Shown here: piece by piece, positions 10,969 through 59,397 of the stretch
Position numbering within the stretch: the stretch's first letter is position 1
How the letters are laid out: each line of letters begins with the position of its first letter
Assembly (NCBI GenBank): GCA_022823235.1
Contig: JAJDXO010000026.1
Location: 66,807 to 130,806 of the forward strand
Length of the DNA: 64,000 bases
Direction of reading: 5' to 3'
Source of the DNA: Rhodospirillales bacterium
Lineage (GTDB): Bacteria; Pseudomonadota; Alphaproteobacteria; Rhodospirillales; UBA2165
Position numbers and translations under genes: made by a program
Notes under the pieces: model-generated
Seen by the model: the letters and a program-made list of their open reading frames with translations, nothing else
Told to the model about the DNA's origin: nothing
Database searches by the model: none

Positions 10969-11020
10969 CCGGACGCTGCTCCCGGTGTTTCGGTTATTTA
11001 ACCGCTTGCCGGGCCCGAGT

Positions 11021-11935: not shown

Positions 11936-11938
11936 CGG

Positions 11939-13783: not shown

Positions 13784-13791
13784 GGGCGGAT

Positions 13792-44374: not shown

Positions 44375-44387
44375 CTTCGTTCTCCCC

Positions 44388-45176: not shown

Positions 45177-45320
45177 CGAGACGGTTCCTCCCTGGGAATT
45201 TCCGGTGATTGCCGGCGATTGCGTGCCGGCGAGCCTATCCGACGGCGGATGCCTAGACAATCGCCCGGGATCGGGCAACCCGGGCCCAACCGGTGTCCGA
45301 CGCTCGGACGAGAAATTGTC

Positions 45321-46763
45321 CTAGACGGGCGCCGGCGTGGCGCCCTTGGTGCCCGTGCCGAACGCCGCCTCCGGTCCGCCGAATTTGGCGGTGAGTTCGT
45401 TTTGGTCGTCCTTGGCGCGGCGGTCGACGGCCTCGGGGTCGACCAGGTCGCGCAGCGCCGCATGCATCGCATCGAGATGCGCCTTGGCGCCCGGATCGCC
45501 CGCCATATTGGTCGTTTCCTCGGGGTCGTCTTCCAGATCGAACAGCTCGGGCTCGAAGCCCACATAGTAAATGTACTTCCACCGGCCGCGGCGGATCATG
45601 AACGCGCCGGAGGGCGAACCCGCGGCGTGATATTCGGAAAATGCGATCCGCCCGGGCTCGTCGTTTTCGCCGGCCAGTTGGAACCATGAACGCCCCGGCA
45701 GATCCCGGGCGTCGTCGGGAACCTCCACGCCGACGCCGTCCAGGATGGTCTGGTAGCTGTCCACAAGGCTGACGGGCGTCGTACAGATCCGGCCTTCGGG
45801 AACGTCCGGCCCGGCGACCATCAGCGGAATACCGGCCGCCTCCTCGTACATGTTGGATTTGCCCCACAGGCCCCGGGCGCCGACATTGTCGCCGTGGTCC
45901 GAGGTGTAGACGATGCGGGTGTCTTCGGCGAGGCCGGATGATTTGAGGGTGTCCAGCACCCGCCCGATTTGCGCATCGACGTAACTGCAGAGGCCGAAAT
46001 AAGCGGCCTGGGCAACCTTGCGGTCGTCCGGGGTCAGCGCATCGTCGGTGCCGTGAAACCGCGCCATGGTATCCGTCCACGGGTGGCGCTCGTATCCGTC
46101 CTCGGGCCGCAGTTTCATGGGCGGCAGGTCGCCGATCGGATACATGTCGTAATATTCCCGCGGCACCACCAGCGGAAAATGCGGCGCCACAAAGCCGAGA
46201 TACAGCACCCAGGGCCGGTCCGCCGGCCGGGCGGCCACGGCCTCCAGCCATTCGCAGGCCGTGTCGGCGATGGTCCGGTCATAGATATTGTACTTGGACT
46301 CTCCGGGGCCGAGGGTTTCGCCCAGCATTTTCTGTCCGCGCGGGTTGCCCAGCGGCAACGGATCCCGCACCGACCCCCATACCTGGCCGACCCCGCCCAT
46401 GATGTGCATGGGGTGGCGCTGCGCGCTGAACCCGGTGGGGTCGGTCTCGTTGCGGTAATGGAGCTTGCCGACGGATTCGACGGCGAACCCGAGGTCGATC
46501 AGATGGTGTCCCCATCCCCGGACCCGGCCGTCATAGGCCAGGGCGTTGTCCCAATAGCCGGTGTCATGCACGTAGCGGCCGGTGGCCCACGCGGCCCGCG
46601 CGGGAATGCAGATCGGCGAATTGGTATAGGCGGCGGTAAAGCGGGTCCCCGCCACGGCCAGCGCGTCCAGGTTCGGGGTCTTCACGTGCGAATGGCCGGC
46701 GCACCCCAGCATCCTGGGGTTGTGCTCGTCGGACATGATGAACAGCAGGTTCTTTGGATTCAT
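45321..46763 (-). CDS. Cys-type sulfatase (S1 family), no signal peptide
   Basis: 480 aa. MNPKNLLFIMSDEHN and formylglycine motif SPICIPARAAWATGR (C-x-P-x-R). ATG 46763 directly abuts the tctA stop (46764). Confidence 0.85.
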   Translation of the reverse strand: MNPKNLLFIMSDEHNPRMLGCAGHSHVKTPNLDALAVAGTRFTAAYTNSPICIPARAAWATGRYVHDTGYWDNALAYDGRVRGWGHHLIDLGFAVESVGKLHYRNETDPTGFSAQRHPMHIMGGVGQVWGSVRDPLPLGNPRGQKMLGETLGPGESKYNIYDRTIADTACEWLEAVAARPADRPWVLYLGFVAPHFPLVVPREYYDMYPIGDLPPMKLRPEDGYERHPWTDTMARFHGTDDALTPDDRKVAQAAYFGLCSYVDAQIGRVLDTLKSSGLAEDTRIVYTSDHGDNVGARGLWGKSNMYEEAAGIPLMVAGPDVPEGRICTTPVSLVDSYQTILDGVGVEVPDDARDLPGRSWFQLAGENDEPGRIAFSEYHAAGSPSGAFMIRRGRWKYIYYVGFEPELFDLEDDPEETTNMAGDPGAKAHLDAMHAALRDLVDPEAVDRRAKDDQNELTAKFGGPEAAFGTGTKGATPAPV

Positions 46764-48338
46764 CTAACCAAGGGCCTTTTTATTGCGGGCGAAGAACACC
46801 ACGACGATGACGGCGATCGCAATAAATGCGATTGAGATCGGACTGTCGAAGAGGAACCACGGGTTGCCGCCGGTCGCCGAAAAGGCCTGCCGCATCGCTT
46901 CCTCCAGGCGGTTCGCGAGAATAAAGGCGATCACGAACGGAAGCACCGAGATATCCAGTTTTCGCATGAGATACCCGATGAAGCCGAAAAACAGCGTGAA
47001 GTAGATGGCGAACATATCGGTGTTTTGCACATATATGGCTGTCGGCGTCAGCAGCAGAACCACCGCCAGCAGACGCTGTTTCGGCACCTTCACCATCACG
47101 CCGGTCGCCCGCATGAAGATACCGCCCAAGGTCCAATTCAGGATATTGGCGCAGATCATTGTCGTGAACAGGCCGAAGACAATGACCATTTCGGGATTTA
47201 TCTGATCTGGAATCACCCGGAAGACGGTCGGGCCGGGGTTGAAACCGCCGATGGATTCGGCGGCCAGGATTATGAAAACCGCCGAGACGTTGCCCGGGAT
47301 TCCCAGTGACAGGACCGGTATCAAATTGGCGCCCGCGACCGAGGAATTGGCCGCCTCGGTCGCCGCGACCCCCTCGGGCACACCCTCTCCAAAGGATTTG
47401 TCGCCCTTGTACATTTTCTTGCCGCTGGCATAGCCGAGGGTCGCCGCCAGGACCGAGCCAATACCCGGGAGCGCGCCGATCGCGGTGCCGATCACCGCCG
47501 ACAAGCCGACAAACGGCAGAATGCGGCGAATGTCGGCCAACCGCAGTTTGTTGTCCCCTTTTTCCTCGATCATGGTGATTTCCGAGCGCTCGCGCATTTC
47601 GCGCCACATGTCTTCCATGGATTTGAAGACTTCGCCCAGGATAAGAACGCCGACGACCGCGCTGACGAGCGGAAATCCATTCCCCAGTTCCTCGCTCCCC
47701 ATGGAAAGCCTGGGATATCCGTCTTCGCCGGTCCCGATATAGGCGAAAAACAGGCCAAGGAGCGCGCCGAGAATCCCCTTCCAAACGGACCTTCCGACGA
47801 CGGCGGATATGAAGGCGAGCGATAGGATGATCAGCGCCGCTTTCTCGGGAAAGTCGAGGAACCGCTCGACCATGATTGCCAGGAACGGCGCCGAGGTGAT
47901 CAGAACAATGTCGGAAAACGTATCGCCGGTAACCGACGAAAAGTGCGCCACCCGCAGCGCCTTTCCCGATTGGCCGTTCCGCGTCATGGGATAGCCGTCG
48001 AACGTCGTCAGCACGGAATCCGGCGTGCCCGGCGTGTTGAACAGGATCGCCGGCACCGCGCCGCCGATTGTCGAACCCTTCATGATGCCGACCAAAAAGC
48101 CGAGAACCGGCAACAGGGCATCGGGCGTGAACCCGAATACCGAAATCAGGATGGGCAGGGATACGGCCATGGCAAACGGGCCGCCGAGACCCGGGGTCGC
48201 GCCGACCACGATGCCGCCGACGAACCCGCTGAAGACCATTACCAAGGTGATCGAGATCGGCAGCCCGAATATGGAGAATGCGGGCTCGGCGGTGAATACC
48301 GCCAATACGCCCAGCCAGACGTGATCCAGCACACCCAC
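46764..48338 (-). CDS. tctA: tripartite tricarboxylate transporter (TTT) large permease
   Basis: GTG 48338 overlaps the tctB TAG by 1 nt. Polytopic TctA-like sequence. The upstream 122 codons of ORF 46764..48704 overlap tctB out of frame. Confidence 0.85.
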   Translation of the reverse strand: MGVLDHVWLGVLAVFTAEPAFSIFGLPISITLVMVFSGFVGGIVVGATPGLGGPFAMAVSLPILISVFGFTPDALLPVLGFLVGIMKGSTIGGAVPAILFNTPGTPDSVLTTFDGYPMTRNGQSGKALRVAHFSSVTGDTFSDIVLITSAPFLAIMVERFLDFPEKAALIILSLAFISAVVGRSVWKGILGALLGLFFAYIGTGEDGYPRLSMGSEELGNGFPLVSAVVGVLILGEVFKSMEDMWREMRERSEITMIEEKGDNKLRLADIRRILPFVGLSAVIGTAIGALPGIGSVLAATLGYASGKKMYKGDKSFGEGVPEGVAATEAANSSVAGANLIPVLSLGIPGNVSAVFIILAAESIGGFNPGPTVFRVIPDQINPEMVIVFGLFTTMICANILNWTLGGIFMRATGVMVKVPKQRLLAVVLLLTPTAIYVQNTDMFAIYFTLFFGFIGYLMRKLDISVLPFVIAFILANRLEEAMRQAFSATGGNPWFLFDSPISIAFIAIAVIVVVFFARNKKALG

Positions 48339-48907
48339 TATTGATCGCCGTTCGGCGGCAGCAACAGGTTGTCGAACGGTACGTCGTAGATGAATCCCAG
48401 TACCACGACGGCGCCGATGGCGACCCCTGCCGCCGCCATTGAGAAACGGTTCTCGACCACCCGAATGGCGCCGAACACCAGCACGAATCCGCCGGCGGCA
48501 AATCCCAGATACTTGTATGGAACGGTATCCCGAAGCTGGCGGTAGGTTCCGATCTCGCCGCCCAGTCCATTGATGGACTCGACGACGACAGGACCGGTGA
48601 AAACCATCAGCACCAGGCCAAGCACAAGCACCACGGCCATTCGCAGGAGGAACGCGATGCTTTGGCGATCGGGGGTATCGTCGAACGGGTCCGGGCGAAA
48701 CCACGAGGTGGCGCCAAGCGCAAGCGCGGCAATGAGGACGCCGACGGCGGCGCCGGTCGGGGCGAGGGCGTCACCGATCATTACCTCACGCCGAAACCGC
48801 TCGATCAGGCCGGTTTCGATGTCGTTCGGAATCCAGACCGCGAGCGTCAGAACCGCCGCCAGAACGAAAAGCGCGGCGAGCGCGAGTGTCCAGCGGTCCT
48901 GTTGCAT
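48338..48907 (-). CDS. tctB: TTT small membrane subunit
   Basis: 189 aa, 4 hydrophobic segments, positioned between tctC and tctA. Confidence 0.75.
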   Translation of the reverse strand: MQQDRWTLALAALFVLAAVLTLAVWIPNDIETGLIERFRREVMIGDALAPTGAAVGVLIAALALGATSWFRPDPFDDTPDRQSIAFLLRMAVVLVLGLVLMVFTGPVVVESINGLGGEIGTYRQLRDTVPYKYLGFAAGGFVLVFGAIRVVENRFSMAAAGVAIGAVVVLGFIYDVPFDNLLLPPNGDQ

Positions 48908-48955: not shown

Positions 48956-49918
48956 CTAGTTGGTTACGCTCATAAGTGTCTTGGATTCTTTCAGTCCGTT
49001 TTTGATGAAATCGTCCAAGGCCTTGCCGGAAATCAGATCCGGGCCTGTGTATCGGGCAGTGACGAACTTGTTCACTTCGCTGTTCTTGTCCGAAATAACC
49101 TCGGCAAAGGCGGCGGCGAGTGTGTTCCGCGCGTCCGCGGACATTCCCTTCGGTCCCACGACGATGAACTTGGCGCCGATGTCATAGGGAATGCCGAGCT
49201 CGATCAGGGTCGGCGCGTTCGGCGAATACGGAATCCGCTTTCCAACTCCCGAAACGAGATTGATCATATCCCCTGATTTGACGGCCTTGGCCTGGATTCC
49301 GGCACCGTATCCGATATCAATGTCCCCGGCGTTCAACGCGTTCATGACGGCGCGTCCGCCGCGAAGAATGACGGTATTGAATTTCACGCCGTATTTCTGT
49401 TCGAGCAGGTAGTTCACATCGGCATGCTTTTGGCTCATGCCGCCGAACTTCACCGTGCCGGCCCGAGCCGCTTTGAGGAAATCGTCCCAAGTCTTCCAGC
49501 CTTTGGAGGCCTTTACCACGAGGCCCATCTGGGAGCCGGTTGTGGTGGTAATGTAGGTGAAGTCGTCCGCCGTGTAGCCCGGGTTTTTCGACGCGAGCAT
49601 GTTGTAGCCAAAGGACTCGGTCACCGCCATGCCGATGGCGGTTCCGTCATTCGGAAGACTCTTGAGCTTGCGCGCCATCAAGGCGCCGCCGCGGCCGGCA
49701 ACGTTCGAGGGGATAACCTTCCACCCCTTGCGTTTTTGCAGTTCGGACGCAATCAGGCGTGCTTGCGTATCGGTGCCGCCGCCGGCGGCAAATCCGATCA
49801 TCAGGCTGATCGGTCCCTTGGGTTTCCATTCCGCGGCCGCGGAACCGGCCATCAGGCCGACAGCCGCCACGCCCAGCGCGGCGGAAACGAGAACTTTCTT
49901 GGCAGTTTTGAGGGTCAT
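48956..49918 (-). CDS. tctC: TTT periplasmic substrate-binding protein (Bug family)
   Basis: 320 aa. Signal peptide VLVSAALGVAAVGLMAGSAAA. Bug motif FAAGGGTDTQARL. Confidence 0.85.
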   Translation of the reverse strand: MTLKTAKKVLVSAALGVAAVGLMAGSAAAEWKPKGPISLMIGFAAGGGTDTQARLIASELQKRKGWKVIPSNVAGRGGALMARKLKSLPNDGTAIGMAVTESFGYNMLASKNPGYTADDFTYITTTTGSQMGLVVKASKGWKTWDDFLKAARAGTVKFGGMSQKHADVNYLLEQKYGVKFNTVILRGGRAVMNALNAGDIDIGYGAGIQAKAVKSGDMINLVSGVGKRIPYSPNAPTLIELGIPYDIGAKFIVVGPKGMSADARNTLAAAFAEVISDKNSEVNKFVTARYTGPDLISGKALDDFIKNGLKESKTLMSVTN

Positions 49919-49967
49919 CTGACGTCCTCCCAGTTGAAAACAAGTTACGTGATCGTTCCAGTCGAAT

Positions 49968-49985
49968 TAGTTGTTATAACAACTA
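49968..49985. promoter_or_regulatory. perfect 18-bp palindrome TAGTTGTTATAACAACTA (operator copy 1, upstream of tctC)
   Basis: Reverse complement equals itself. Lies 50 nt upstream of the tctC ATG (49918). Confidence 0.6.
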
Positions 49986-50017
49986 TATTGATTTTCGGTT
50001 CGTGATGCAAGCGCTTC

Positions 50018-51367
50018 TCACCCCGGCGGCTCATACGGATCGAGGGTACCGGGCGGGATGGGCGGATGCGCCTTCAGGCTTTCCCGGAAGTCGCGAACCA
50101 TCTGCGAAATCGGCCCCATGACCCAGGAATTCAGGATCGCCACATTGGTCTCTTCCTTGGGGTCCTGGATGAGGTTGAACAGGTACGGGGCTTCGAGTTT
50201 GCCCTTCCCCTCGTTGACTTCCGGCTCCCAGTAGAAATGCAGCTTCCAGTCCCGCCACTTGGCCGCCCGCATGTCTTCCTTGATGAAGAAGACGAAGCCC
50301 TCGCGCGCGGAATGTTCCGCGCCTTCGAACAGAAACGCGGTCTGGTCGATTCCGTCGACGGGCCGGTCCGCCGGTATGCCGTCGCCGGCGCCCGCGAGCT
50401 TGGCGAGGGTGACGTAAAAGTCGGAGATATGGAGCATCTCGTCGCTGACCGCGCCGGTCGGCACCTTGCCCGGCCAGCGCAAAATACACGGCACCCGGAG
50501 GCTGCCCTCCATCGCCGTGTGGTAAGTGCCGCGCCAGTAGCCCGCCGTCCCGCGCCAGGGGTCGCGAAACTCCGGGCCATTGTCGGACGCGAAGATCACC
50601 AGCGTATCGTCGGCGATCCCCAACCGGCCGATCTCGTCCAGAATCTGGCCGACCCGGTGATCCAGTTCCACGAGGCTGTCGGCCATCTCCCCGTGACCGG
50701 TGACGCCCTTGAAATCCGGATGGGGCAGGTTGGGAAAGTGCATCTGGGTGACCGGCGCATACAGAAAGAACGGCTTTTCGTCCGCCACCGCCTTGCCCAT
50801 GAAGTCAATGGAGCGCCGGACGATCTCGCCGTCGATCAGCCGGCGGCTCTCCATGTCGAAGACCTGAAGGTCGCGGGACTCCTCGCCCGCCTTGCCTTCC
50901 ATCAGGTGCGGAACCTGAACCACCCGGTCGTCGAACCCCTGCGCCGTCGTGAAGTAGGCTTCGTTGAGGGTGCGCGGCAGGCCGTACCAATCATCGAATC
51001 CGCGGGCATTCGGCAGACGATGCGGGGCGTCCCCCAGGTGCCACTTGCCGTAATGGGCCGTCGCATAGCCTGCCCCGGAGATCAGCTCGGACAGCAGCAC
51101 CTCCCATGTGGTGAGGCCATGGGGCACGCCCGCCGGCATGGATTGATAGGCGCCGGTACGGATCGCGTGACGGCCGGTCATCAGGGCGGTCCGGGTCGGT
51201 ACGCAATCGCTTTCCACGTTGAAGTTGGTGAGCCTGAGGCCCTCTTCGGCGAAGGCGTCGATTCGCGGCGTCGGCGCGCCGCGCAAGACCCCGCCGCCGT
51301 AGCAGCCAAGCTCGCCCCAACCAAGATTGTCGGCGAGAATGAGCACGATGTTCGGCCGCCCGCTCAT
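50018..51367 (-). CDS. Cys-type arylsulfatase-like sulfatase (S1 family), no signal peptide
   Basis: ATG 51367 overlaps the MarR stop (ATGA). RPNIVLILADNLGWGELGCYG and SDCVPTRTALMTGR motifs. Confidence 0.85.
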   Translation of the reverse strand: MSGRPNIVLILADNLGWGELGCYGGGVLRGAPTPRIDAFAEEGLRLTNFNVESDCVPTRTALMTGRHAIRTGAYQSMPAGVPHGLTTWEVLLSELISGAGYATAHYGKWHLGDAPHRLPNARGFDDWYGLPRTLNEAYFTTAQGFDDRVVQVPHLMEGKAGEESRDLQVFDMESRRLIDGEIVRRSIDFMGKAVADEKPFFLYAPVTQMHFPNLPHPDFKGVTGHGEMADSLVELDHRVGQILDEIGRLGIADDTLVIFASDNGPEFRDPWRGTAGYWRGTYHTAMEGSLRVPCILRWPGKVPTGAVSDEMLHISDFYVTLAKLAGAGDGIPADRPVDGIDQTAFLFEGAEHSAREGFVFFIKEDMRAAKWRDWKLHFYWEPEVNEGKGKLEAPYLFNLIQDPKEETNVAILNSWVMGPISQMVRDFRESLKAHPPIPPGTLDPYEPPG

Positions 51368-51858
51368 CCGCCGCCGGTCTCGCCGGTTTCGTCCAAAAGC
51401 GTTATCGCCTGGCCTTCTATCTTGCGGAGCAGGCGGTCGAACTCTCTCCGCTCCGCCGCCGTCAGCACACTGATCAGCCGGTCCTGCCTGTCCTGGGACG
51501 TGGCGGACATGGCGTCGTAGAGCGATCGGCCTTCGGGGGTGAGTTCGACAACCATCCGCCGCCGATCCGCCGCATCCGGCGTCCGGCGGACCAGTCTCCG
51601 GTCGATAAGGCGCTGGACCGCCCTTGAGACATTGCTCTTGTCCATCACCGTCTCTTCGGAAATCCGGCTGGCGCTCATCGGCCCGCCGCGTCCCAGGGGC
51701 GCCAATGTCCGCCACTCCACCGACGTCATCCCGAATTTGTTCCCGTACGTGCGGGTCGCCCAGAGGGTCAAGCGGTTGGACAAAAGCGAGAAACGGTAAG
51801 CCAAGATATTCCGCAGCTCGAATTTCTCCGGCCCCGCCGGTGCCGCCAAGTCGTCCAT
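51364..51858 (-). CDS. MarR family transcriptional regulator
   Basis: ATG 51858 with GGGAGG 10 nt upstream. Winged-helix SASRISEETVMDKSNVSRAVQRLIDRRLV. Translationally coupled to the downstream sulfatase. Confidence 0.8.
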   Translation of the reverse strand: MDDLAAPAGPEKFELRNILAYRFSLLSNRLTLWATRTYGNKFGMTSVEWRTLAPLGRGGPMSASRISEETVMDKSNVSRAVQRLIDRRLVRRTPDAADRRRMVVELTPEGRSLYDAMSATSQDRQDRLISVLTAAERREFDRLLRKIEGQAITLLDETGETGGG

Positions 51859-51895
51859 GCGAACGTCGCCTCCCACCGGAAATCATCTCAAATTT

Positions 51896-51913
51896 TAGTT
51901 GCTATAACAACTA
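51896..51913. promoter_or_regulatory. operator copy 2, TAGTTGCTATAACAACTA, in the marR / comA-like divergent region
   Basis: 17/18 match to copy 1. 38 nt from the MarR ATG and 52 nt from the ComA-like ATG. Confidence 0.6.
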
Positions 51914-51964
51914 AGATTTGAAAACGTTCGGACCGGAAAGCACAGGCCGGGAAGAGGCACGACG

Positions 51965-52759
51965 ATGGCTGACACGGCATTTGAATTCATTGACTTCCCC
52001 ATGCGCCCGTCCAAGCCGCGGCGCGACGGGCTGACCATGATGATCGATTGGGGCCTGCCCCTCGCACTCCAGTCCGATGTGGTGGCGGGAGCAAACCGGT
52101 ACATCGATATGGCCAAGATCGCGGGTTCGATAGCAGGCGTGATGTCCCGCGGGCTGCTGGAGGAAAAAATCGCCGCCTACAGGTCAGCCGGGATCAGCAC
52201 CTCGCAAGGCGGGCTGTTTACGGAAATGGCCTATATGCAGGGAAAAATCGAACCCTTCTTCGAGCGCATTGCCGAACTGGGTTTCGATGCGGTCGAAATC
52301 TCGGACAATCTGCTGAACTGGAGCCTCACCGACAAGGAACGAACGATTCGGCTGGCGATCGAGCAATTCGGACTGAAAGTCCTTGGCGAGGTGGGCCGCA
52401 AGGATGCGGCCATGGACGACGACGCCTTGCTCGAGGATCTTCGGATCACCGTGGATGCCGGCGTCACGTCGGTATTCGTGGAGGCATACGAACTATTCGC
52501 GGGCGATTCCATTCGCGACGACCTGATCGCGAAGATCGCCGGGCAGCACCCGTCGGACACCATCATCTACGAACTGCCGGTGGTCGTATTGCCCGGGGTC
52601 ACGCGCGAGTTCAAGCACAAGGTCACCGTCTGGATGGTGGATGCGCTCGGCTCCAACGTGAACCTGGCCAACGTGGAGTGGGACGAGATCTGGATGACCG
52701 AAATCATCCGGTGCCGCGGCGCCGACAACCTCGAAGAACCGGATAATACGCAGGCCTAG
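51965..52759 (+). CDS. comA: phosphosulfolactate synthase (ComA, coenzyme-M pathway type) family protein
   Basis: 264 aa. Blocks KPRRDGLTMMIDWGL, GFDAVEISDN, LGEVGRK and GSNVNLANVEWDEI match, from memory, the conserved blocks of archaeal (2R)-phospho-3-sulfolactate synthase. Confidence 0.7.
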   Translation: MADTAFEFIDFPMRPSKPRRDGLTMMIDWGLPLALQSDVVAGANRYIDMAKIAGSIAGVMSRGLLEEKIAAYRSAGISTSQGGLFTEMAYMQGKIEPFFERIAELGFDAVEISDNLLNWSLTDKERTIRLAIEQFGLKVLGEVGRKDAAMDDDALLEDLRITVDAGVTSVFVEAYELFAGDSIRDDLIAKIAGQHPSDTIIYELPVVVLPGVTREFKHKVTVWMVDALGSNVNLANVEWDEIWMTEIIRCRGADNLEEPDNTQA

Positions 52760-52827
52760 GGTCCGGCCTCGATTGAGCCGCCATAGGAGTGTTGGGCGAT
52801 GGGGACCGCGCCGGCTAAGGCGTCAGC

Positions 52828-52930
52828 TGAGGCCTAAATTGATTGCGTCATGGCCGGGCCCAGACCCGGCCATCCACGTGTACCGTACACCGCCAGACGT
52901 GGATCACCGGGTCCAGGCCCGGTGATGACG
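52828..52930 (+). repeat. REP-like element R2 copy followed by a second hairpin module
   Basis: ATGGCCGGG-N6-CCCGGCCAT, then CCACGT..ACGTGG, then ATCACCGGG-N6-CCCGGTGAT. Matches the classic alphaproteobacterial intergenic hairpin family. Confidence 0.75.
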
Positions 52931-52937
52931 ACTCTTG

Positions 52938-52980
52938 TTCCCCCGCCCCCATCACGGGAGCGGGACAGGGGGAGGGGGAA
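52938..52980. repeat. C-rich/G-rich inverted repeat TTCCCCCGCCCCC..GGGGGAGGGGGAA
   Basis: 13-nt arms with one mismatch, followed by AGGGGGCGAGGG. Located just after the convergent sulfatase stop (52996). Confidence 0.6.
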
Positions 52981-52995
52981 AGGGGGCGAGGGCCC

Positions 52996-54531
52996 CTAGG
53001 CCTCGTGTTCGGGCAGGTCCGCCATCATCGGGCCCGGCCGGGCCCGGATCATGTCCGTGAGCTCCTTTTGCAGCGCGGCGTACCCGGGATCGCCGAAGAG
53101 ATTGTCCATCTCCAGGGGGTCGTTCCCCAGATCGTACATCTCCCCCGCCCCCGAGATCAGCTCGAGCGTCAACTTGGCATCCCGGGTGCGCACGGTTCTG
53201 AGATTGAGCTCCACGCCGGTGCGGCTCGGCTGTTGGTTCCACTCGGAATAGGAAACGTCGCGGCTTTGCCCGCCGCCCTCCGCCAGCGGCCGGACCGACG
53301 TGCTTTGATCCATGCTGCCGCACTCGACCCCCGCCCAGTCATAAAAGCTGGCGGCGAGATCCACCGTCGAGACCGGCGCATCGACAATCGCGCCGCCGGG
53401 GACATGGGGGCCCTTGACGATGAACCCGAGTTTGAGCAGGGCGTCATACGGCGTCGGTCCCTTCAGATAGAGCCCGTGATCTCCCAGCAGGTCGCCGTGG
53501 TCCATGGTGAAGACGACGATGGTGTTGCCGGCGAGGCCCGTATCATCGAGGGTCTTCATGATCCGGCCGACGCCGTCGTCGATGAAGGCGATCTCGCCGT
53601 AATAATTGGCGGTCATTTGCCTCAACTGCCTGTCGGTCTGGGGCTGGATGCGCGAATACTCCTTGCGCAGCGTCTGCTCCCGCTGCCGTTTGGCTCGCGG
53701 CTCGTTCTCCAGGGACGCCCGATGCCACCAGGGACGCCGGTCCAGGTCCCTTTCGTGGGTCCGGGAAATATCCACTTCGTCTTCGTGGTGGAGACGGCTC
53801 CAAGGCTCGGGACAGTCGAACGGATGGTGAGGATCGGGATAGGATGTCCAGAGGCAGAATGGCTCGTCGGCGCCTTTTCGGCTTTCGAGAAACGACTTCG
53901 TGCGCTCGGTTACCCAATGGGTCGAGTGCCACTCCGCCGGCAGGCCCGAGAACCAGGTCTGGGCCGCCTCCTGTTCGGGACCCAAATCCTCGGCCCAGCG
54001 CCGCCACGCCTCCCCCTCCCCGCCGTTGCCCCAGAACCAGCGCTCAAAATGATGGCCGCGGGGCGGTTTCTCACAGGGAAGCAGGTCGTGCCAATGGCCG
54101 AGGATCATCAGCTCCACATGGTCGAACCCCATATAAGGCCCGGACCAGTCATCCGGAAATTCCGCCGACCGGGCCCGGGATTCCGGGGCGCCGAAGGGCG
54201 TGTTGCCGGGGTTCTCGCCGAAATGCCCCTTGCCGATGAAGGCGCTCCGGTATCCCGCATTCGCCAATGTCCGCGCCCAGCCGGTTTCGCCGACGGCGGG
54301 GTCCAGGCTGACATGATTGTCGTAGACCCCATGGGTCAGCGGCAGCAGTCCCGTCAGGATGGAGGCGCGCGCCGGCTGACAAACCAGGTTCGGGGTAATG
54401 GCATTCGAGAATCGGGTTCCCGACGCGGCCAGGGCATCGAGGTGCGGGGTCTTGATCTTCCGGCCTTCGAAGCCGAAGCAGTCCCAGCGATGCTGGTCGG
54501 AGGTGATGAGCAGAATATTGGGTCGGGTCAT
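52996..54531 (-). CDS. Cys-type sulfatase (S1 family), no signal peptide
   Basis: ATG 54531. MTRPNILLITSDQHRWD and NLVCQPARASILTG motifs. Paralogous to 59398..61044. Confidence 0.85.
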   Translation of the reverse strand: MTRPNILLITSDQHRWDCFGFEGRKIKTPHLDALAASGTRFSNAITPNLVCQPARASILTGLLPLTHGVYDNHVSLDPAVGETGWARTLANAGYRSAFIGKGHFGENPGNTPFGAPESRARSAEFPDDWSGPYMGFDHVELMILGHWHDLLPCEKPPRGHHFERWFWGNGGEGEAWRRWAEDLGPEQEAAQTWFSGLPAEWHSTHWVTERTKSFLESRKGADEPFCLWTSYPDPHHPFDCPEPWSRLHHEDEVDISRTHERDLDRRPWWHRASLENEPRAKRQREQTLRKEYSRIQPQTDRQLRQMTANYYGEIAFIDDGVGRIMKTLDDTGLAGNTIVVFTMDHGDLLGDHGLYLKGPTPYDALLKLGFIVKGPHVPGGAIVDAPVSTVDLAASFYDWAGVECGSMDQSTSVRPLAEGGGQSRDVSYSEWNQQPSRTGVELNLRTVRTRDAKLTLELISGAGEMYDLGNDPLEMDNLFGDPGYAALQKELTDMIRARPGPMMADLPEHEA

Positions 54532-54543
54532 GGGCGGACAAGA

Positions 54544-54561
54544 TAGTTGTTTTAACAACCA
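54544..54561. promoter_or_regulatory. operator copy 3, TAGTTGTTTTAACAACCA, in the sulfatase / lldD-like divergent region
   Basis: 16/18 match to copy 1. 13 nt upstream of the sulfatase ATG 54531. Confidence 0.5.
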
Positions 54562-54660
54562 AAATAAAAGCCCTAATTTCGGCACCCCCCCGGCCCGGAT
54601 TGCCAATTCCGGCCAAAAACGGTAGGGATAAAAATACAGCACCGTTACGGGGAGTCAGCC

Positions 54661-55803
54661 GTGGACCCGCTGCGGAAATACCCGGCCATAGAAGATCTGC
54701 ACCGGCGCGCGCGAAAGCGCATACCGAGATTCGCCTTCGACTATCTGGAAGGCGGCGCGGGCGATGAATCCGGTATTGACCGCAACCGGGAGGCGCTGCT
54801 GGAGATCCGGCTGATCGCCGACTACCTGGAGGAGCGCAGCCCGCCCGACCTCGGCGTCGAGGTGTTCGGCCGCAAGGTCGATCTCCCATTCGGCATTGCG
54901 CCGGTGGGATTGAGCGGCTTGATCTGGCCCCGGGCCGCCGAGTATCTGGCGAGCGCGGCGAAGGACGCCAACGCGGTCTATTGCCTTTCGACCGTCGCCA
55001 GTTCGGGCATCGAGCGCATCGGCGGTCTGATGCAGGAAGGCAGCTGGTTTCAGCTCTACCCGATTCGCGAAGTCGAAAAGGAAGACGATCTCCTGAAACG
55101 GGCCTGGGATGCCGGATTCCAAGTGCTCACGCCGACGATCGATATTCCGGCGGCGGCCCGCCGCCTTCGGGATTTCCGCAACGGCCTGACGGTGCCGCCC
55201 GAGATGACCATCGGCAATATCGTCTCGATCTTCGCCCACCCCACATGGGCCCTCGCAACCCTGGCGGCCGGCCCGCCGAAATTCGAGAGCCTGATGCCGT
55301 ATTTCCCAAAGGGGGTCACCTACAAATCCGTCGGCCAAATGATCGAAACCCTCGCCGAGGGGCAGATCGACTGGCGGCGCATCGAACGCTACCGGAAGAT
55401 TTGGCCGGGCGCCCTAGCGGTGAAAGGCGTTCTCAGCGCCGGGGATGCCCGCCGCGCCCGGGAGGCCGGCTGTGACGGGTTGCTCGTGTCCAACCATGGC
55501 GGCCGGCAACTGGATGGACTGGTGTCTCCCATCGACGTCCTGCCGGTCATACGTGAGACCGTCGGACCCGACATGACCCTGGTGGTCGACAGCGGCCTGC
55601 GGTCGGGCACGGACATCGTCCGGGCCTATGCCAAGGGGGCCGACTTCACGCTCCTCGGCCGGGCATTCTTCTATGGGGTCGGCGCGCTGGGGCGGCCGGG
55701 AGCAGCACACGCCATCGAAGTACTGAAGGCCGAGGTCTTTGCCGCCCTCCATCAATTGGGCTGCCCGAACATGGCGGCGACACCGCGCTACCTGGCGAAT
55801 TAA
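54661..55803 (+). CDS. FMN-dependent alpha-hydroxy acid dehydrogenase/oxidase (LldD / glycolate oxidase family)
   Basis: GTG 54661 with GGGGAG 6 nt upstream. RIPRFAFDYLEGGAGDE and SNHGGRQLD motifs. Confidence 0.85.
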   Translation: MDPLRKYPAIEDLHRRARKRIPRFAFDYLEGGAGDESGIDRNREALLEIRLIADYLEERSPPDLGVEVFGRKVDLPFGIAPVGLSGLIWPRAAEYLASAAKDANAVYCLSTVASSGIERIGGLMQEGSWFQLYPIREVEKEDDLLKRAWDAGFQVLTPTIDIPAAARRLRDFRNGLTVPPEMTIGNIVSIFAHPTWALATLAAGPPKFESLMPYFPKGVTYKSVGQMIETLAEGQIDWRRIERYRKIWPGALAVKGVLSAGDARRAREAGCDGLLVSNHGGRQLDGLVSPIDVLPVIRETVGPDMTLVVDSGLRSGTDIVRAYAKGADFTLLGRAFFYGVGALGRPGAAHAIEVLKAEVFAALHQLGCPNMAATPRYLAN

Positions 55804-55806
55804 GCC

Positions 55807-56301
55807 TTACGCGTTTCCGTCCCGAACCATGGGCGAGACATATTGGGGCGACGTATCCCAGGGAAAGAAAACCCAGACATTCTGCGCCACGTCGTGAACG
55901 TAGGTGTCGACGAATTCCAACCCGCCCGGCTTGGCGTAGACCGTCGCCACATGAGCATCGGGGAGGAGCTTCCGCGCCTCCCTCATGGTCGCACCGGTAT
56001 CGACGAGATCGTCGACCAGCAGCCAGCCCTCGCCCTTGTCGGCGCAGGCCTCTTCCGGCGCCTTGATCAGATTGATGTCGCCTATGTTCTTTTCGTCGTA
56101 GGTGGCGATGCACAGGGTGTCGACGTACCGCAGTTCCAGTTCGCGGGCGAGGATCGTTGCGGGGACCAGACCGCCCCGGGTGATCGCGACAATACCCTTC
56201 ATCGGGCCAAGCGCCATGAGACGGCGCACCAAATCCTTGGTGTCCCGGTGCACCTCGTCCCAGGTCACCACGAGGTCGATTTGATAGCTATTCTCGGCCA
56301 T
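55807..56301 (-). CDS. gpt: xanthine-guanine phosphoribosyltransferase
   Basis: ATG 56301. VTWDEVHRDTKDLVRRL..IVAITRGGLVPATILARELE..LLVDDLVDTGAT is collinear with E. coli Gpt. Confidence 0.85.
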   Translation of the reverse strand: MAENSYQIDLVVTWDEVHRDTKDLVRRLMALGPMKGIVAITRGGLVPATILARELELRYVDTLCIATYDEKNIGDINLIKAPEEACADKGEGWLLVDDLVDTGATMREARKLLPDAHVATVYAKPGGLEFVDTYVHDVAQNVWVFFPWDTSPQYVSPMVRDGNA

Positions 56302-56336
56302 GAACCGCCGTTCTCCCCTGATGCGGACCAAGCCGT

Positions 56337-56789
56337 CTATTCGCGGAAATTCTCAACCCAAACCGTGTTATGGCGCGCGGCAACTTCCCTGCCGGTCTCG
56401 AAATCCGCCCGCTGCTCCGGCGTCAGCGCCGTCATGTCCTTGAACATGGCTTCGGTCTCACCCGGGCTATAGACCATCAGGACCCGGACCCCGTCATCGC
56501 CGGCGATCATCTGATGGGGGACGCCCGGCGGAATATGAAACAGATCGCCCGGTTTGCCCTCGTAGGTGTCGTTTTCGCCCATCAAGAAGGTGGCGCTTCC
56601 CTCGATGACGAAGAAGGTCTCGTGATTTTGCACATGCATGTGCGGACGGGACGCAAAGCCGGCCGGGCAGCGTTCTTCGCAAACTTCGTAGGCGCCCGAC
56701 GTATCCTCCGCGGTCACCTTGACGAACATGTCGTTGGCGCGCTCGTAGAGATTGCCGCCGTCCGGATTGATCTTCTTGGCCTGAGCCAT
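56337..56789 (-). CDS. cupin domain protein
   Basis: ATG 56789. Cupin motifs RPHMHVQNHETFFVIEG and GDLFHIPPGVPH. Confidence 0.7.
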   Translation of the reverse strand: MAQAKKINPDGGNLYERANDMFVKVTAEDTSGAYEVCEERCPAGFASRPHMHVQNHETFFVIEGSATFLMGENDTYEGKPGDLFHIPPGVPHQMIAGDDGVRVLMVYSPGETEAMFKDMTALTPEQRADFETGREVAARHNTVWVENFRE

Positions 56790-56865
56790 ATCGATGTCTC
56801 CCGAAAATTCCTTGCGATGAATCCCCAATGGTACCGGGGAGCCGGCCAGAGTCCAATCCCAAAGG

Positions 56866-59232: not shown

Positions 59233-59397
59233 GCCGCTCCCCAATTATGTGATCAAGCCCGGTCCTTTGCCGATCATAGGTCTCCGGCGCGGACCGGCAA
59301 CACCATTTGAGCCGTCATCCGGGCGAAAACCGATCCATGGCCGTTGGCATTGGGATACACCCCCTGAAGACGGCTTGCCCAATCCGGGGGGCGCATT

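What the first reader, a model, noticed from the sequence alone, without database searches (positions are those of the whole stretch)
51965..52759. ComA-type phosphosulfolactate synthase homologue embedded in a sulfatase regulon
The 264-aa product shares the conserved blocks I remember from archaeal (2R)-phospho-3-sulfolactate synthase: KPR..GLT...D.GL, GF.AVEISD, EVG(K/R)K and GS.VNLAN....E.

That enzyme adds sulfite to PEP in coenzyme M biosynthesis, a pathway not expected here. The gene is transcribed divergently from marR-sulfatase and shares the palindromic operator.

Sulfatases release sulfate, not sulfite, so the functional link is unexplained. Possibilities are a new C3-sulfonate or sulfate-ester reaction, or a reverse (desulfonating) role.
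Basis: partly seen in the sequence, partly recalled or inferred. Interest (0 to 1): 0.65.

Follow-up and report, generated by a model that had tools for sequence, protein, structure and literature searches.

The report
Divergent ComA-like enzyme wired to sulfatases
The gene is a real but atypical relative of the enzyme that makes phosphosulfolactate; it sits under the same predicted repressor as several sulfatases and a carboxylate importer, an association repeated in distant bacteria, so it probably does an undescribed step in using organic sulfur compounds rather than making coenzyme M.

Summary
Observation confirmed. ORF 51965-52759 (+) is a ComA-family (PF02679, E 1.8e-49) TIM barrel. The AF2 model superposes on M. 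jannaschii ComA at TM 0.82-0.86.

It is not an orthologue of proven phosphosulfolactate (PSL) synthases:
- It scores 141 bits against a cut-off of 280 for the archaeal equivalog model.
- It falls outside the clade holding ComA, YitD and XcbB.
- It keeps every family-wide catalytic residue, including the ComA Lys137 equivalent.
- It has lost the polar, glycine-rich positions shared by those three enzymes (T48, T76, G107, R170, G173). They are replaced by I/L/N/Y/F, and a conserved basic loop is inserted.

The sulfatase link is real:
- A conserved palindrome occurs three times, in front of marR-sulfatase/comA-like, tctCBA-sulfatase, and sulfatase/FMN 2-hydroxyacid dehydrogenase.
- 24 of 34 dereplicated clade members, from Alpha-, Beta- and Deltaproteobacteria and Actinobacteria, have a sulfate-ester enzyme within 5 kb; 23 have a TTT transporter gene.
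- Conversely, most orthologues of the partner sulfatase lack the gene, so it is an optional add-on.

Best reading: an enolate-forming lyase or isomerase acting on an imported organosulfur carboxylate or its desulfated product. This is inferred, not shown. The reaction is unknown, and no literature was found on this linkage.

The parts
51965..52759 (+). ComA-like gene (264 aa), a non-canonical member of the ComA/PF02679 TIM-barrel family. No signal peptide.
51895..51914 (.). Operator O1: perfect palindrome TTAGTTG-N6-CAACTAA between marR and the ComA-like gene. It lies 51-70 nt upstream of the ComA-like ATG and 37-56 nt upstream of the marR ATG.
   Evidence: Identical in L001, L006 and L008-L011; one mismatch in L007.
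51364..51858 (-). MarR-family regulator (164 aa), the predicted repressor of the regulon.
   Evidence: Pfam MarR_2 1.9e-16. Best NCBIfam hit is HpaR, sub-threshold. Start inferred and the 164-aa orthologue in L001.
50018..51367 (-). SULF1: cytoplasmic type I (formylglycine) sulfatase, 449 aa, with motif C-V-P-T-R. Translationally coupled to marR through an ATGA overlap.
   Evidence: closest PDB 7aj0 'Arylsulfatase', 9e-77. The orthologue group is 62-66% identical between Rhodospirillales and Burkholderiales.
49967..49986 (.). Operator O2 (TTAGTTGTTATAACAACTAT, 1 mismatch), 49 nt upstream of tctC.
   Evidence: Same position in L001, L002, L006-L010 and L014-L019.
48956..49918 (-). TctC, the periplasmic binding protein of a tripartite tricarboxylate (TTT) transporter.
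   Evidence: Pfam TctC 4.1e-19.
46764..48907 (-). TctB (48338-48907) and TctA (46764-48338), the membrane subunits of the TTT transporter.
   Evidence: Pfam TctA 2.9e-98. The split follows the gene calls in L001 and the ORF list.
45321..46763 (-). SULF0: cytoplasmic type I sulfatase, 480 aa, motif C-I-P-A-R, choline-sulfatase-like.
   Evidence: 6fny, 1.8e-58. Orthologues lie next to ComA-like genes in many taxa.
52996..54531 (-). SULF2: third type I sulfatase (motif C-Q-P-A-R), convergent with the ComA-like gene.
   Evidence: The 511-aa start follows L001.
54543..54562 (.). Operator O3 (ATAGTTGTTTTAACAACCAA, 2 mismatches), between SULF2 and the FMN dehydrogenase gene.
   Evidence: Conserved in L001 and L006-L010.
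54661..55803 (+). FMN-dependent (S)-2-hydroxy-acid dehydrogenase, a predicted regulon member.
   Evidence: Pfam FMN_dh 3.4e-112. LldD subfamily hit is below cut-off. Closest PDB is (S)-mandelate dehydrogenase 6bfg, 5.7e-69.

Best explanation
**Shown**
- The gene encodes a cytoplasmic, non-canonical ComA-family TIM barrel.
- It keeps the family's conserved acidic and basic residues. These include K146, which aligns with Lys137 of M. jannaschii ComA.
- It has replaced the polar, glycine-rich loop residues common to the enzymes called phosphosulfolactate synthase with bulky hydrophobic ones, and it has gained a conserved basic loop.
- It lies in a predicted three-operator MarR regulon together with three cytoplasmic formylglycine sulfatases, a TctCBA importer and an FMN 2-hydroxy-acid dehydrogenase.

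**Inferred**
- It is not a coenzyme M or sulfolactate biosynthetic enzyme. It is an optional catabolic accessory of an organosulfate-utilisation module.
- A small sulfated carboxylate is imported by the TTT system and desulfated in the cytoplasm.
- The ComA-like enzyme then abstracts the C-alpha proton of the same carbon skeleton, a non-phosphorylated 2-oxygenated carboxylate, through a metal-stabilised enolate.
- My preferred outcome is a beta-elimination, that is ComA chemistry run backwards, with sulfite, sulfate or hydroxide leaving from C3. This would give an enol that ketonises to a 2-oxo acid.
- MarR would release the three operators when the substrate or an intermediate is present.

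**Unknown**
- The actual substrate.

**How the confidence splits**
- The stated confidence (0.4) is for the whole reading, including the same-pathway accessory role and beta-elimination as the outcome.
- The narrower claim that it is not a PSL synthase but an enolate-forming enzyme tied to organosulfur use I would put at about 0.7.
For: **Family, fold and retained core**
- establish family and fold.
- K17, R19, D28, D48, K51, K68, E87, E111, S113, E142, K146, E173, E176, E203, N233, N236, E246 and R249 are the family-wide conserved columns, and all are kept.

**Changed pocket**
- Positions identical in M. jannaschii ComA, B. subtilis YitD and Xanthobacter XcbB, and at least 88% conserved in their tree-defined clade, are G47, T48, T76, G107, R170, G173, G177, G183 and Q212.
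- In the window clade several are replaced by other conserved residues: I56, L84, N115 and F178.
- Position 175 is variable (Y/H/S/A). G177 is deleted. The positions matching G47, G183 and Q212 are variable.
- The loop 205-PVVVLPGVTREFKHK-219 is inserted.
- These residues lie in the loops after beta-strands 2, 3, 4, 6 and 7 of the model.

**Separate clade**
- The protein falls in a clade separate from the canonical one.
- It scores 140.7 bits against a TIGR03849 cut-off of 280.

**Regulon**
- There are three operator copies against 0.18 expected.
- They are positionally conserved across loci down to about 60% protein identity.

**Conserved linkage**
- 24 of 34 dereplicated clade members have a type I sulfatase, an MBL alkylsulfatase-like protein or an arylsulfotransferase within 5 kb. 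23 of 34 have a TTT gene.
- Tight operons occur in Pseudacidovorax, Variovorax and Thermodesulfobacteriota.
- In Variovorax, tctC and the ComA-like gene form a pair divergent from lysR-SULF1, so the binding protein is shared.
- The sulfatases keep C-x-P-x-R and have no room for a signal peptide.

**Hints towards elimination, enol and 2-oxo-acid chemistry**
- A non-canonical member is fused or adjacent to a 4-oxalocrotonate tautomerase domain.
- Other non-canonical members sit with PrpD/PrpF or beside FAA-hydrolase-family (2-oxo-enoate hydratase-like) genes.
- Distant clades sit with TauD, SsuA-like and NtaA/DmoA genes.

**ComB fusions**
- All five ComA-ComB fusions seen are of the canonical type only.
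Against: **No chemistry observed**
- No substrate or reaction has been observed. The roles I assign to the lost residues (anion binding) rest on analogy and on my memory of the 2003 ComA structure paper, which I could not read.
- If the lost residues bind only sulfite, PEP could still be the substrate.

**Evidence pointing to a phospho-ester product**
- One locus (L094/L018, ComA-like 60% identical) has a ComB-family phosphatase 1.5 kb upstream.
- In three Desulfobacterales loci the adjacent 'sulfatase' has T-x-P-x-R, a Thr nucleophile typical of phosphoesterases.
- In L014-L019 the partner is a DUF3604 protein with only a weak, sub-threshold match (25 bits against a cut-off of 80) to a metallohydrolase domain (CehA/McbA).
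- These would fit a phospho-ester product.

**Weak or missing links**
- Most SULF1 orthologues lack a ComA-like neighbour: 3-4 of about 55 have one. The two enzymes are therefore not obligate partners.
- About a quarter of clade members have no sulfatase nearby.
- No sulfite exporter or sulfite oxidase was recognised in the neighbourhoods examined. They were not systematically annotated.
- The hydrophobic replacements also argue against a sulfonate at C3.
- The tautomerase fusion rests on one 1.4-kb contig.
Confidence: 0.4

Rival explanations
1. It is a 2-hydroxy-acid (or 2-sulfooxy-acid) racemase or epimerase. The same enolate chemistry would be used to invert C2, so that a stereospecific sulfatase or the (S)-specific FMN dehydrogenase of the regulon can use both enantiomers. 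This would be analogous to the mandelate racemase / (S)-mandelate dehydrogenase pair.
For: - The catalytic Lys and acidic residues are retained.
- The pocket is hydrophobic or aromatic: I56, L84, Y175, L177, F178.
- Conserved new basic residues K217 and H218 could provide a second base.
- An FMN dehydrogenase whose closest solved relative is (S)-mandelate dehydrogenase sits behind operator O3.
- The regulators' best hits are aromatic-acid types (HpaR, PcaQ, PcaR/PobR), though all are sub-threshold.
- AspC/TyrB-type aminotransferases lie in some SULF1 operons.
- An optional add-on fits the asymmetry seen.
Against: - The FMN dehydrogenase accompanies only the window clade (7 loci).
- No racemase has ever been reported in this fold.
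- It does not explain the tautomerase, PrpD/PrpF or TauD contexts of relatives.
Confidence: 0.2
2. It is still a phosphosulfolactate synthase, or adds another nucleophile to PEP. The neighbouring alkaline-phosphatase-superfamily, DUF3604 or ComB proteins would then remove the phosphate. The pathway would make sulfolactate, or scavenge sulfite that would otherwise inhibit formylglycine sulfatases.
For: - Family annotation and a retained catalytic core.
- A ComB-family gene lies near the 60%-identical homologue in L094.
- Thr-type AP-superfamily hydrolases are directly upstream in L046, L047 and L088.
- DUF3604 has a weak, sub-threshold metallohydrolase match.
- From my own knowledge, sulfite is an inhibitor of arylsulfatases.
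Against: - It scores half the equivalog cut-off.
- All residues shared by the three enzymes called PSL synthase, apart from the family-wide core, are changed.
- ComA-ComB fusions are canonical only.
- ComB is found in 1 of about 85 loci and not in the window.
- The partners include an MBL alkylsulfatase-like protein and arylsulfotransferases, which do not suggest phosphatase work.
- The setting is catabolic in style: importer plus MarR, LysR or IclR regulators.
- SULF1 is a widespread stand-alone module with LysR and TctC.
Confidence: 0.13
3. It is co-regulated but acts in a separate pathway. The locus would be a general organosulfur-scavenging island, like ats/ssu/tau islands. The ComA-like enzyme would desulfonate its own imported sulfonate, independently of the sulfatases.
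For: - In Burkholderiales each enzyme often has its own LysR and TctC.
- Relatives sit with TauD, SsuA-like and NtaA/DmoA genes.
- SULF1 usually occurs without it.
- From my own knowledge, TTT transporters are the known sulfolactate importers (SlcHFG).
Against: - In compact operons one transporter serves all the enzymes (L035, L088).
- The binding protein is shared in Variovorax.
- The polar residues expected for a sulfonate pocket are lost.
- No sulfite-handling genes were noticed.
Confidence: 0.15
4. There is no functional link. The adjacency would be chance in a sulfatase-rich genome, or the gene would be decaying.
For: The window carries four sulfatases within 16 kb, which raises the prior for chance adjacency here.
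Against: - The same linkage occurs in distant phyla with orthologous sulfatases.
- The operator is conserved.
- The subfamily alignment has 64 invariant columns.
- The ORF is intact and the model has high confidence.
Confidence: 0.02

Closest known systems
(2R)-phospho-3-sulfolactate synthase: ComA of Methanocaldococcus jannaschii (PDB 1qwg), XcbB of Xanthobacter autotrophicus Py2, YitD of Bacillus subtilis (PDB 1u83)
   Same: - Same Pfam family and fold.
- All family-wide conserved residues are shared, including the equivalent of Lys137.
- Similar length. Whether it forms the same trimer was not tested.
   Different: - 30-33% identity.
- Separate clade.
- Below the equivalog cut-off.
- T48, T76, G107, R170 and G173 are replaced, G177 is deleted, and a 10-15-residue basic loop is inserted after strand 7.
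- Catabolic-style context with an importer, sulfatases and a MarR regulator, rather than comB-E or xcbA-E.
(R)-sulfolactate sulfo-lyase SuyAB with the SlcHFG TTT importer (sulfolactate degradation)
   Same: - It is what the gene might work like. SuyAB eliminates sulfite from a 2-hydroxy-3-sulfo carboxylate to give pyruvate (PMC12421959).
- The SlcHFG transporter role is my own recollection and was not checked here.
   Different: - Unrelated fold.
- No suyAB, slcC or comC genes were recognised here.
- Activity was not tested.
- The hydrophobic pocket does not obviously suit sulfolactate.
Enolase-superfamily enzymes (enolase, acid-sugar dehydratases, mandelate racemase) and the MdlA/MdlB mandelate pair
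   Same: - Metal-stabilised enolate from a carboxylate with a Lys base. [quoted passage not shown]
- An MdlB-like FMN dehydrogenase is in the regulon.
   Different: - Different fold and no sequence relationship.
- The analogy is mechanistic only.
Sulfate-starvation and organosulfur islands (ats, ssu and tau genes under LysR-type control)
   Same: - Clusters of sulfatases, TauD-type and luciferase-like desulfonating enzymes with binding-protein-dependent importers and LysR regulators.
   Different: - TTT transporters rather than ABC transporters in most loci.
- MarR or IclR control in some lineages.
- No ComA-family member is part of the described islands (searches found no literature).
[quoted passage not shown]
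   Same: Another ComA-family member whose molecular function is unknown and not tied to coenzyme M (bioRxiv 10.1101/2024.10.15.618377).
   Different: - Eukaryotic, with a chaperone-related phenotype.
- No sulfatase context.
- Its position in my tree was not determined.

Membership tests
ComA family (Pfam PF02679) | Full-length match to the family profile above the gathering score. | tested here: met
   168.8 bits against 25.2, profile positions 2-239 of 243.
ComA family (Pfam PF02679) | (beta/alpha)8 barrel superposable on solved ComA structures. | tested here: met
   AF2 pLDDT 90.3. Foldseek 1qwg TM 0.82/0.86, rmsd 2.1; 1u83 TM 0.76/0.88.
ComA family (Pfam PF02679) | Family-wide conserved acidic and basic residues (D20, D40, K43, K60, E79, E103, S105, E133, K137, E168, E171, E205, N224, N227, R240 in M. 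jannaschii numbering). | tested here: met
   All are present in the window protein.
Phosphosulfolactate synthase proper (EC 4.4.1.19; NCBIfam TIGR03849 equivalog) | Score above the curated equivalog cut-off. | tested here: not met
   140.7 bits against a cut-off of 280.
Phosphosulfolactate synthase proper (EC 4.4.1.19; NCBIfam TIGR03849 equivalog) | Membership of the clade containing ComA, YitD and XcbB. | tested here: not met
   NJ tree of 191 sequences. The window protein lies in the separate E-A-x-E-[LF]-[FL] group. The tree is a rough distance tree without support values.
Phosphosulfolactate synthase proper (EC 4.4.1.19; NCBIfam TIGR03849 equivalog) | Residues shared by the three enzymes called PSL synthase beyond the family core (G47, T48, T76, G107, R170, G173, G177, G183, Q212). 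| tested here: not met
   All are changed or deleted. That these residues define specificity is my inference.
Phosphosulfolactate synthase proper (EC 4.4.1.19; NCBIfam TIGR03849 equivalog) | Pathway partners nearby (comB/comC/comDE, or xcbA, C, D, E). | tested here: not met
   No ComB-like sequence is in the 64-kb window, and one occurs in only 1 of about 85 related loci. The xcb-type neighbours of XcbB are absent from the window clade. The rest of the genome was not available.
Phosphosulfolactate synthase proper (EC 4.4.1.19; NCBIfam TIGR03849 equivalog) | Catalysis of PEP + sulfite -> (2R)-phospho-3-sulfolactate. | not testable with these tools
   Needs an enzyme assay.
MarR-type repressor regulon | Winged-helix MarR protein plus a palindromic site in its own promoter region, repeated before other target genes and conserved in orthologous loci. 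| tested here: met
   Binding itself was not tested.
Type I (formylglycine) sulfatases: the neighbours SULF0, SULF1, SULF2 | Sulfatase domain with the C/S-x-P-x-R motif. | tested here: met
   Pfam PF00884. Motifs CIPAR, CVPTR and CQPAR. A maturation enzyme (FGE or anSME) was not searched for.
Tripartite tricarboxylate transporter | TctC, TctB and TctA genes present together. | tested here: met

The most novel reading that the evidence does not exclude
The non-canonical ComA clade is a new, oxygen-independent class of carbon-sulfur or carbon-oxygen-sulfur lyase. It would be a ComA barrel running 'backwards' on non-phosphorylated substrates. It would release sulfite or sulfate from small sulfo-carboxylates imported by TTT transporters. 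Aerobic soil and marine bacteria would use it for sulfur or carbon acquisition, and sulfate-reducing Desulfobacterales would use it to feed respiration. The DUF3604 protein that substitutes for the partner sulfatase would then be a further, unrecognised organosulfate hydrolase.
Probability: 0.2. Interest if true: 0.8.

Novelty: new variant of a known kind. Interest (0 to 1): 0.6.

Why it matters
**Annotation error.** Automated pipelines call every member of this family 'phosphosulfolactate synthase'. This has been read as evidence for coenzyme M or methane-related metabolism in metagenomes; one example is a sponge metatranscriptome (PMC4412061). The data here show that a large bacterial part of the family, including this gene, lacks the features of the proven enzymes. 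It sits instead in organosulfate and organosulfonate utilisation loci. That is a correctable, systematic annotation error.

**Testable handle.** The finding defines a compact set of genes: regulator, TTT binding protein, one or two cytoplasmic sulfatases, and the ComA-like enzyme. The set is present in culturable Variovorax, Pseudacidovorax, Bordetella and Candidimonas strains.

**Open question it addresses.** Small-molecule sulfate esters are a large but poorly characterised pool of sulfur in soil and sea. The substrates of cytoplasmic bacterial sulfatases are mostly unknown. Identifying the ligand of this module would give both a sulfatase substrate and a new reaction for an old fold.

Tried and rejected
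**Sulfatase-maturating enzyme (Cys to formylglycine).** Rejected. The chemistry is oxidative and no cofactor site is evident. Many partners are MBL-type or Thr-type hydrolases that need no formylglycine.

**comB partner.** One hit in about 85 loci and none in the window.

**4-oxalocrotonate tautomerase genes next to other ComA-like genes.** Nothing significant beyond the single P0128 contig.

**Literature.**
- No paper mentions PF02679.
- One unrelated paper holds both 'phosphosulfolactate synthase' and 'sulfatase'.
- DUF3604 is uncharacterised.
- Nothing was found on sulfatase plus TTT modules.
- The 2003 ComA structure paper is not held. A search for active-site descriptions led nowhere.

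**Sigma-70 promoter and terminator scan of 51780-53050.** No matches.

**Reciprocal test from the sulfatase side.** I expected tight coupling. I found that ComA-like is a minority add-on to a very common LysR-SULF1-TctC module.

**An error of mine.** In the first tblastn I used a mis-framed SULF1 query (50018-51366). This weakened SULF1 detection there. It was corrected and by ORF clustering.

**Plasmid search.** It found only distant relatives (under 34% identity), so the window clade is not plasmid-borne in that collection.
Full report
**1. The observation**

The ORF 51965-52759 (+) is real: ATG start, 264 aa.

- It matches Pfam ComA (PF02679) over essentially the whole profile, with E 1.8e-49.
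- It matches the solved ComA of Methanocaldococcus jannaschii (1qwg, 1.3e-25) and the Bacillus subtilis protein deposited as PSL synthase (1u83, 2.8e-19).
- An AlphaFold2 model built on 22 homologues has mean pLDDT 90.3 and eight strand-helix units.
- Foldseek returns 1qwg and 1u83 as by far the best structures, at TM 0.82/0.86 and 0.76/0.88.

**2. The surroundings**

Gene content comes from Pfam and NCBIfam scans. A 94%-identical contig with precomputed gene calls (L001) fixes the map as follows.

| Coordinates | Strand | Gene |
|---|---|---|
| 45321-46763 | - | sulfatase SULF0 |
| 46764-48338 | - | TctA |
| 48338-48907 | - | TctB |
| 48956-49918 | - | TctC |
| 50018-51367 | - | sulfatase SULF1 |
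| 51364-51858 | - | marR |
| 51965-52759 | + | ComA-like |
| 52996-54531 | - | sulfatase SULF2 |
| 54661-55803 | + | FMN-dependent 2-hydroxy-acid dehydrogenase |
| 55807-59244 | - | phosphoribosyltransferase, cupin and molybdenum hydroxylase genes |
| 59398-61044 | + | sulfatase SULF3 |

- marR and SULF1 overlap by ATGA.
- All four sulfatases carry C-x-P-x-R.
- The sulfatase domains of SULF0 and SULF1 start within five residues of the N-terminus. They are therefore cytoplasmic formylglycine-type enzymes acting on something imported.
- The closest solved relative of SULF0 is choline sulfatase (6fny, 1.8e-58). For SULF1 it is an entry named arylsulfatase (7aj0, 9e-77).

**3. The regulon**

- The 106-bp marR/ComA-like spacer holds the perfect palindrome TTAGTTG-CTATAA-CAACTAA at 51895-51914.
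- Allowing three mismatches, the pattern occurs three times in 64 kb. The expectation is 0.18, and no shuffle of 100 reached three.
- The second copy (49967-49986) lies 49 nt upstream of tctC.
- The third copy (54543-54562) lies between SULF2 and the FMN dehydrogenase gene.
- All three sit at the same relative positions in the orthologous loci L001 and L006-L010.
- Recognisably related sites sit before tctC and in the marR/ComA-like spacer of a clade whose ComA-like proteins are only about 60% identical (L014, L015, L017, L019).
- This is phylogenetic footprinting, not binding data. It supports one MarR regulon comprising marR-SULF1, tctCBA-SULF0, the ComA-like gene, SULF2 and the FMN dehydrogenase.
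- The dehydrogenase's closest solved relative is (S)-mandelate dehydrogenase (6bfg, 5.7e-69). It falls below the LldD cut-offs.

**4. Is it a phosphosulfolactate synthase?**

Three lines of evidence say it is not an orthologue.

*First, the equivalog score.* It reaches only 140.7 bits against the 280-bit cut-off of the NCBIfam equivalog model.

*Second, the tree.*
- I built a neighbour-joining tree from 191 family members. These came from 80 genome loci, 150 representatives of a search of 1.84 billion cluster representatives, and the two PDB sequences.
- ComA and YitD fall in one clade of 26 sequences.
- The window protein falls in a separate, larger group.
- The tree is a simple distance tree without support values, so only this coarse split should be trusted.

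*Third, the pocket residues.*
- I compared the three enzymes called PSL synthase: ComA, YitD, and Xanthobacter XcbB. XcbB's activity is reported in PMC9457059, and I took its sequence from plasmid pXAUT01.
- Positions identical in all three and at least 88% conserved in their clade are G47, T48, T76, G107, R170, G173, G177, G183 and Q212.
- In the window clade (56 sequences at 44% identity or more) the replacements are:
  - I at position 56 (95%).
  - L at 84 (96%).
  - N at 115 (100%).
  - Y/H/S/A at 175.
  - F at 178 (96%).
  - A deletion at G177.
  - Variable residues at the other positions.
- A conserved loop, PVVVLPGVTREFKHK (205-219), is inserted.
- In the model these positions lie in the loops that follow strands 2, 3, 4, 6 and 7, the catalytic face of a TIM barrel.
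- By contrast, every column conserved across the whole family is kept, including K146, the counterpart of Lys137.
- I recall from the 2003 structure paper that Lys137 was proposed as the proton donor and that the glutamates bind Mg2+. I could not re-read that paper.

My inference is as follows.
- The machinery that forms and protonates a metal-bound enolate at C2 of a carboxylate is intact.
- The polar, glycine-rich anion-binding environment needed for a phosphate and a sulfonate has been replaced. The new pocket is bulkier and more hydrophobic, with a new basic loop.

**5. Is the sulfatase link more than coincidence?**

Yes, from the side of the ComA-like gene.

- A scan of one genome per GTDB species gave 80 loci.
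- Neighbour analysis used tblastn with the window's proteins and de novo ORF clustering. Pfam-annotated contigs were used as well.

Recurrent arrangements are listed below.

| Lineage (loci) | Gene order | Note |
|---|---|---|
| Rhodospirillales (window clade) | SULF0-TctABC-SULF1-MarR, then divergent ComA-like | |
| Related Rhodospirillaceae | same order | SULF1 replaced by a 780-aa DUF3604 protein |
| Burkholderiales (Variovorax, Pseudacidovorax, Bordetella, Candidimonas, Thiomonas, Rhodoferax) | LysR-SULF1-(TctC)-ComA-like-(LysR)-SULF0-TctC | mostly one strand |
| Desulfobacterales and Thermodesulfobacteriota | IclR-(sulfatase-like)-ComA-like-TctCBA | followed by an MBL-fold alkylsulfatase-like protein (PF14863 3.6e-26), a second MBL protein and an arylsulfotransferase |
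| Arthrobacter mangrovi; an unclassified alphaproteobacterium | further variants | |

- After dereplication at 85% identity, 24 of 34 clade members have a sulfate-ester enzyme within 5 kb, and 23 have a TTT gene.
- Two more members have SULF0 at 7.5 kb in the same operon.
- SULF0 and SULF1 next to the gene are true orthologue groups. SULF1 is 62-66% identical between Alpha- and Betaproteobacteria.
- In Variovorax the pair tctC-ComA-like is divergent from lysR-SULF1. The only nearby binding protein for SULF1 is therefore the one co-transcribed with the ComA-like gene.
- More distant non-canonical clades (31-36% identity) sit with GntR, an SsuA-like binding protein, ABC permeases, a TauD-like dioxygenase and DUF3604. 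Others sit with an NtaA/DmoA-type monooxygenase.

**6. The link is asymmetric**

- Starting from SULF1, a metagenome scan found at least 505 relatives.
- In the 80 best (62-96% identity) the usual module is LysR-SULF1-TctC.
- Only 3-4 of about 55 loci with enough flank carry a ComA-like gene.
- The sulfatase therefore works without it. The ComA-like gene is an optional addition to a common import-and-desulfate module.
- About a quarter of ComA-like clade members have other neighbours. Examples are a glutamate-mutase-like cluster with PrpD, an M20 peptidase, or no clear pattern.

**7. Clues to the chemistry**

All of these clues are weak.

*Gene fusions.*
- Five ComA-ComB fusions and one adenylation-carrier-ComA fusion all carry the canonical motifs.
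- One non-canonical member (40% identical to the window protein) is fused to, or read through from, a 4-oxalocrotonate tautomerase domain. This rests on a single 1.4-kb contig.
- That is what one would expect if the product is a free enol of a 2-oxo acid. It can arise only if the 2-oxygen is not phosphorylated.

*Other non-canonical members.*
- Some follow PrpD and PrpF genes with a TctC on Bradyrhizobium plasmids.
- Others lie beside FAA-hydrolase-family genes resembling 2-oxopent-4-enoate hydratase.

*Partners in the window and in Burkholderiales.*
- In the window the regulon holds an FMN 2-hydroxy-acid dehydrogenase.
- In three Burkholderiales loci an AspC/TyrB-type aminotransferase lies in the SULF1 operon.
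- The best, though sub-threshold, NCBIfam matches of the MarR, LysR and IclR regulators are HpaR, PcaQ and PcaR/PobR, all aromatic-acid regulators.

Together these point to a 2-hydroxy, 2-oxo or 2-amino carboxylate skeleton, possibly aromatic. They also point to addition-elimination or proton-transfer chemistry next to the carboxylate.

**8. Evidence pulling the other way**

- One locus (L094, the same as L018; ComA-like 60% identical) has a ComB-family phosphatase 1.5 kb upstream. It is the only one among about 85 loci.
- In three Desulfobacterales loci the sulfatase-family gene directly upstream has T-L-P-F-R where the formylglycine cysteine should be. From my own knowledge, a threonine nucleophile is typical of phosphoesterases of this superfamily.
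- DUF3604 has only a faint match to a metallohydrolase domain.
- These facts keep alive the reading that the ComA-like product is a phospho-ester that the neighbour hydrolyses. That would be a PSL-synthase-like reaction, perhaps with another nucleophile.
- I rate this reading lower for four reasons: the lost glycine-rich R-E-S-G-x-G-x-G loop; the stand-alone life of SULF1; the alkylsulfatase and arylsulfotransferase partners; and the catabolic-style regulation.

**9. Verdict**

*Shown.*
- A well-conserved, non-canonical ComA-family clade.
- Its predicted co-regulation with sulfatases, a TTT importer and a 2-hydroxy-acid dehydrogenase in this window.
- Recurrence of the sulfatase/TTT association across phyla.

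*Inferred.*
- It is not a PSL synthase.
- It uses enolate chemistry on a non-phosphorylated carboxylate belonging to an organosulfate pathway.

*Committed guess, about one in three.*
- A beta-elimination giving a 2-oxo acid.
- C2 racemisation, genuine PSL-type synthesis and an independent desulfonation role are the rivals.

No paper in the searchable library connects this family with sulfatases.

*Origin of the window.*
- The nearest relatives of the window are Rhodospirillales MAGs, at 90-95% protein identity.
- One related record is explicitly named after the sponge Spongia (L026).
- I did not verify where the window itself comes from.

Noticed in passing
L014, L015, L017, L019 (about 0.5-2.9 kb upstream of the ComA-like gene); also L060, L061, L068, L070, L071, L073-L075, L078, L080, L084: A 780-aa DUF3604 protein takes exactly the operon position of sulfatase SULF1 (marR-DUF3604-tctCBA-SULF0). 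It also accompanies distant ComA-like clades. The family is uncharacterised. This positional swap suggests it may be an unrecognised ester hydrolase.
   Followed up: partly
L097-L176 (metagenome loci): LysR-SULF1-TctC is a very common three-gene module, with at least 505 relatives in the metagenome scan. The sulfatase is unusually conserved (62-72% identity across classes). This implies a specific, widespread and still unknown small-molecule sulfate ester.
   Followed up: partly
P0189, P0196, P0203, P0229, P0215; P0185: Canonical ComA occurs fused to ComB (about 500 aa). Once it is fused to an adenylation domain plus carrier protein (966 aa), which suggests sulfonate-containing natural-product assembly.
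   Followed up: partly
P0128 / L096 56-1099: A non-canonical ComA-like domain is preceded in the same reading frame by a 4-oxalocrotonate tautomerase domain. This rests on a single short contig.
   Followed up: partly
L092 (Bradyrhizobium guangxiense plasmid p53363) 5328-8756: A PrpD-PrpF-ComA-like operon lies next to a TctC and an IclR gene. The same hit recurs in seven Bradyrhizobium plasmids. This is a different, non-sulfur-looking context for the family.
   Followed up: no
L012 9924-9943: A palindrome resembling the window's operator (AAAGTTGTCTGTACAACTAT) lies 56 nt upstream of a 65%-identical ComA-like gene. This locus has no recognised marR or sulfatase nearby.
   Followed up: no
L046, L047, L088 (sulfatase-family gene directly upstream of ComA-like): This sulfatase-family protein has T-x-P-x-R instead of C/S-x-P-x-R, so it cannot form formylglycine. 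It may be a phosphoesterase, or a sulfatase with an unusual nucleophile.
   Followed up: partly
window 55807-59244 (-): A phosphoribosyltransferase, a cupin and a molybdenum hydroxylase large subunit (best match glyceraldehyde or CO dehydrogenase type, below cut-off) are wedged between the regulon and a fourth sulfatase at 59398-61044. The block is conserved in L001 and L006-L010.
   Followed up: no
window 43604-45278 (-): Two FAA-hydrolase-family genes (best hits 2-keto-4-pentenoate hydratase, below cut-off) and an SDR lie directly downstream of SULF0 on the same strand. A PAS histidine kinase is at 40831-42549. A homologous FAA-hydrolase gene also lies beside the ComA-like gene in L093.
   Followed up: no
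window 7495-14002 (-): An indolepyruvate-ferredoxin-oxidoreductase-like protein (TPP, POR and DUF6537 domains; 1157 aa) lies next to an AMP-binding ligase. This looks like an aromatic 2-oxo-acid activation pair. It was not linked to the regulon.
   Followed up: no
PDB entries 24fo/24gz: Newer M. jannaschii ComA entries differ from 1qwg by an unknown or modified residue (X) at Lys26. They may contain information on the active site that I could not access.
   Followed up: no
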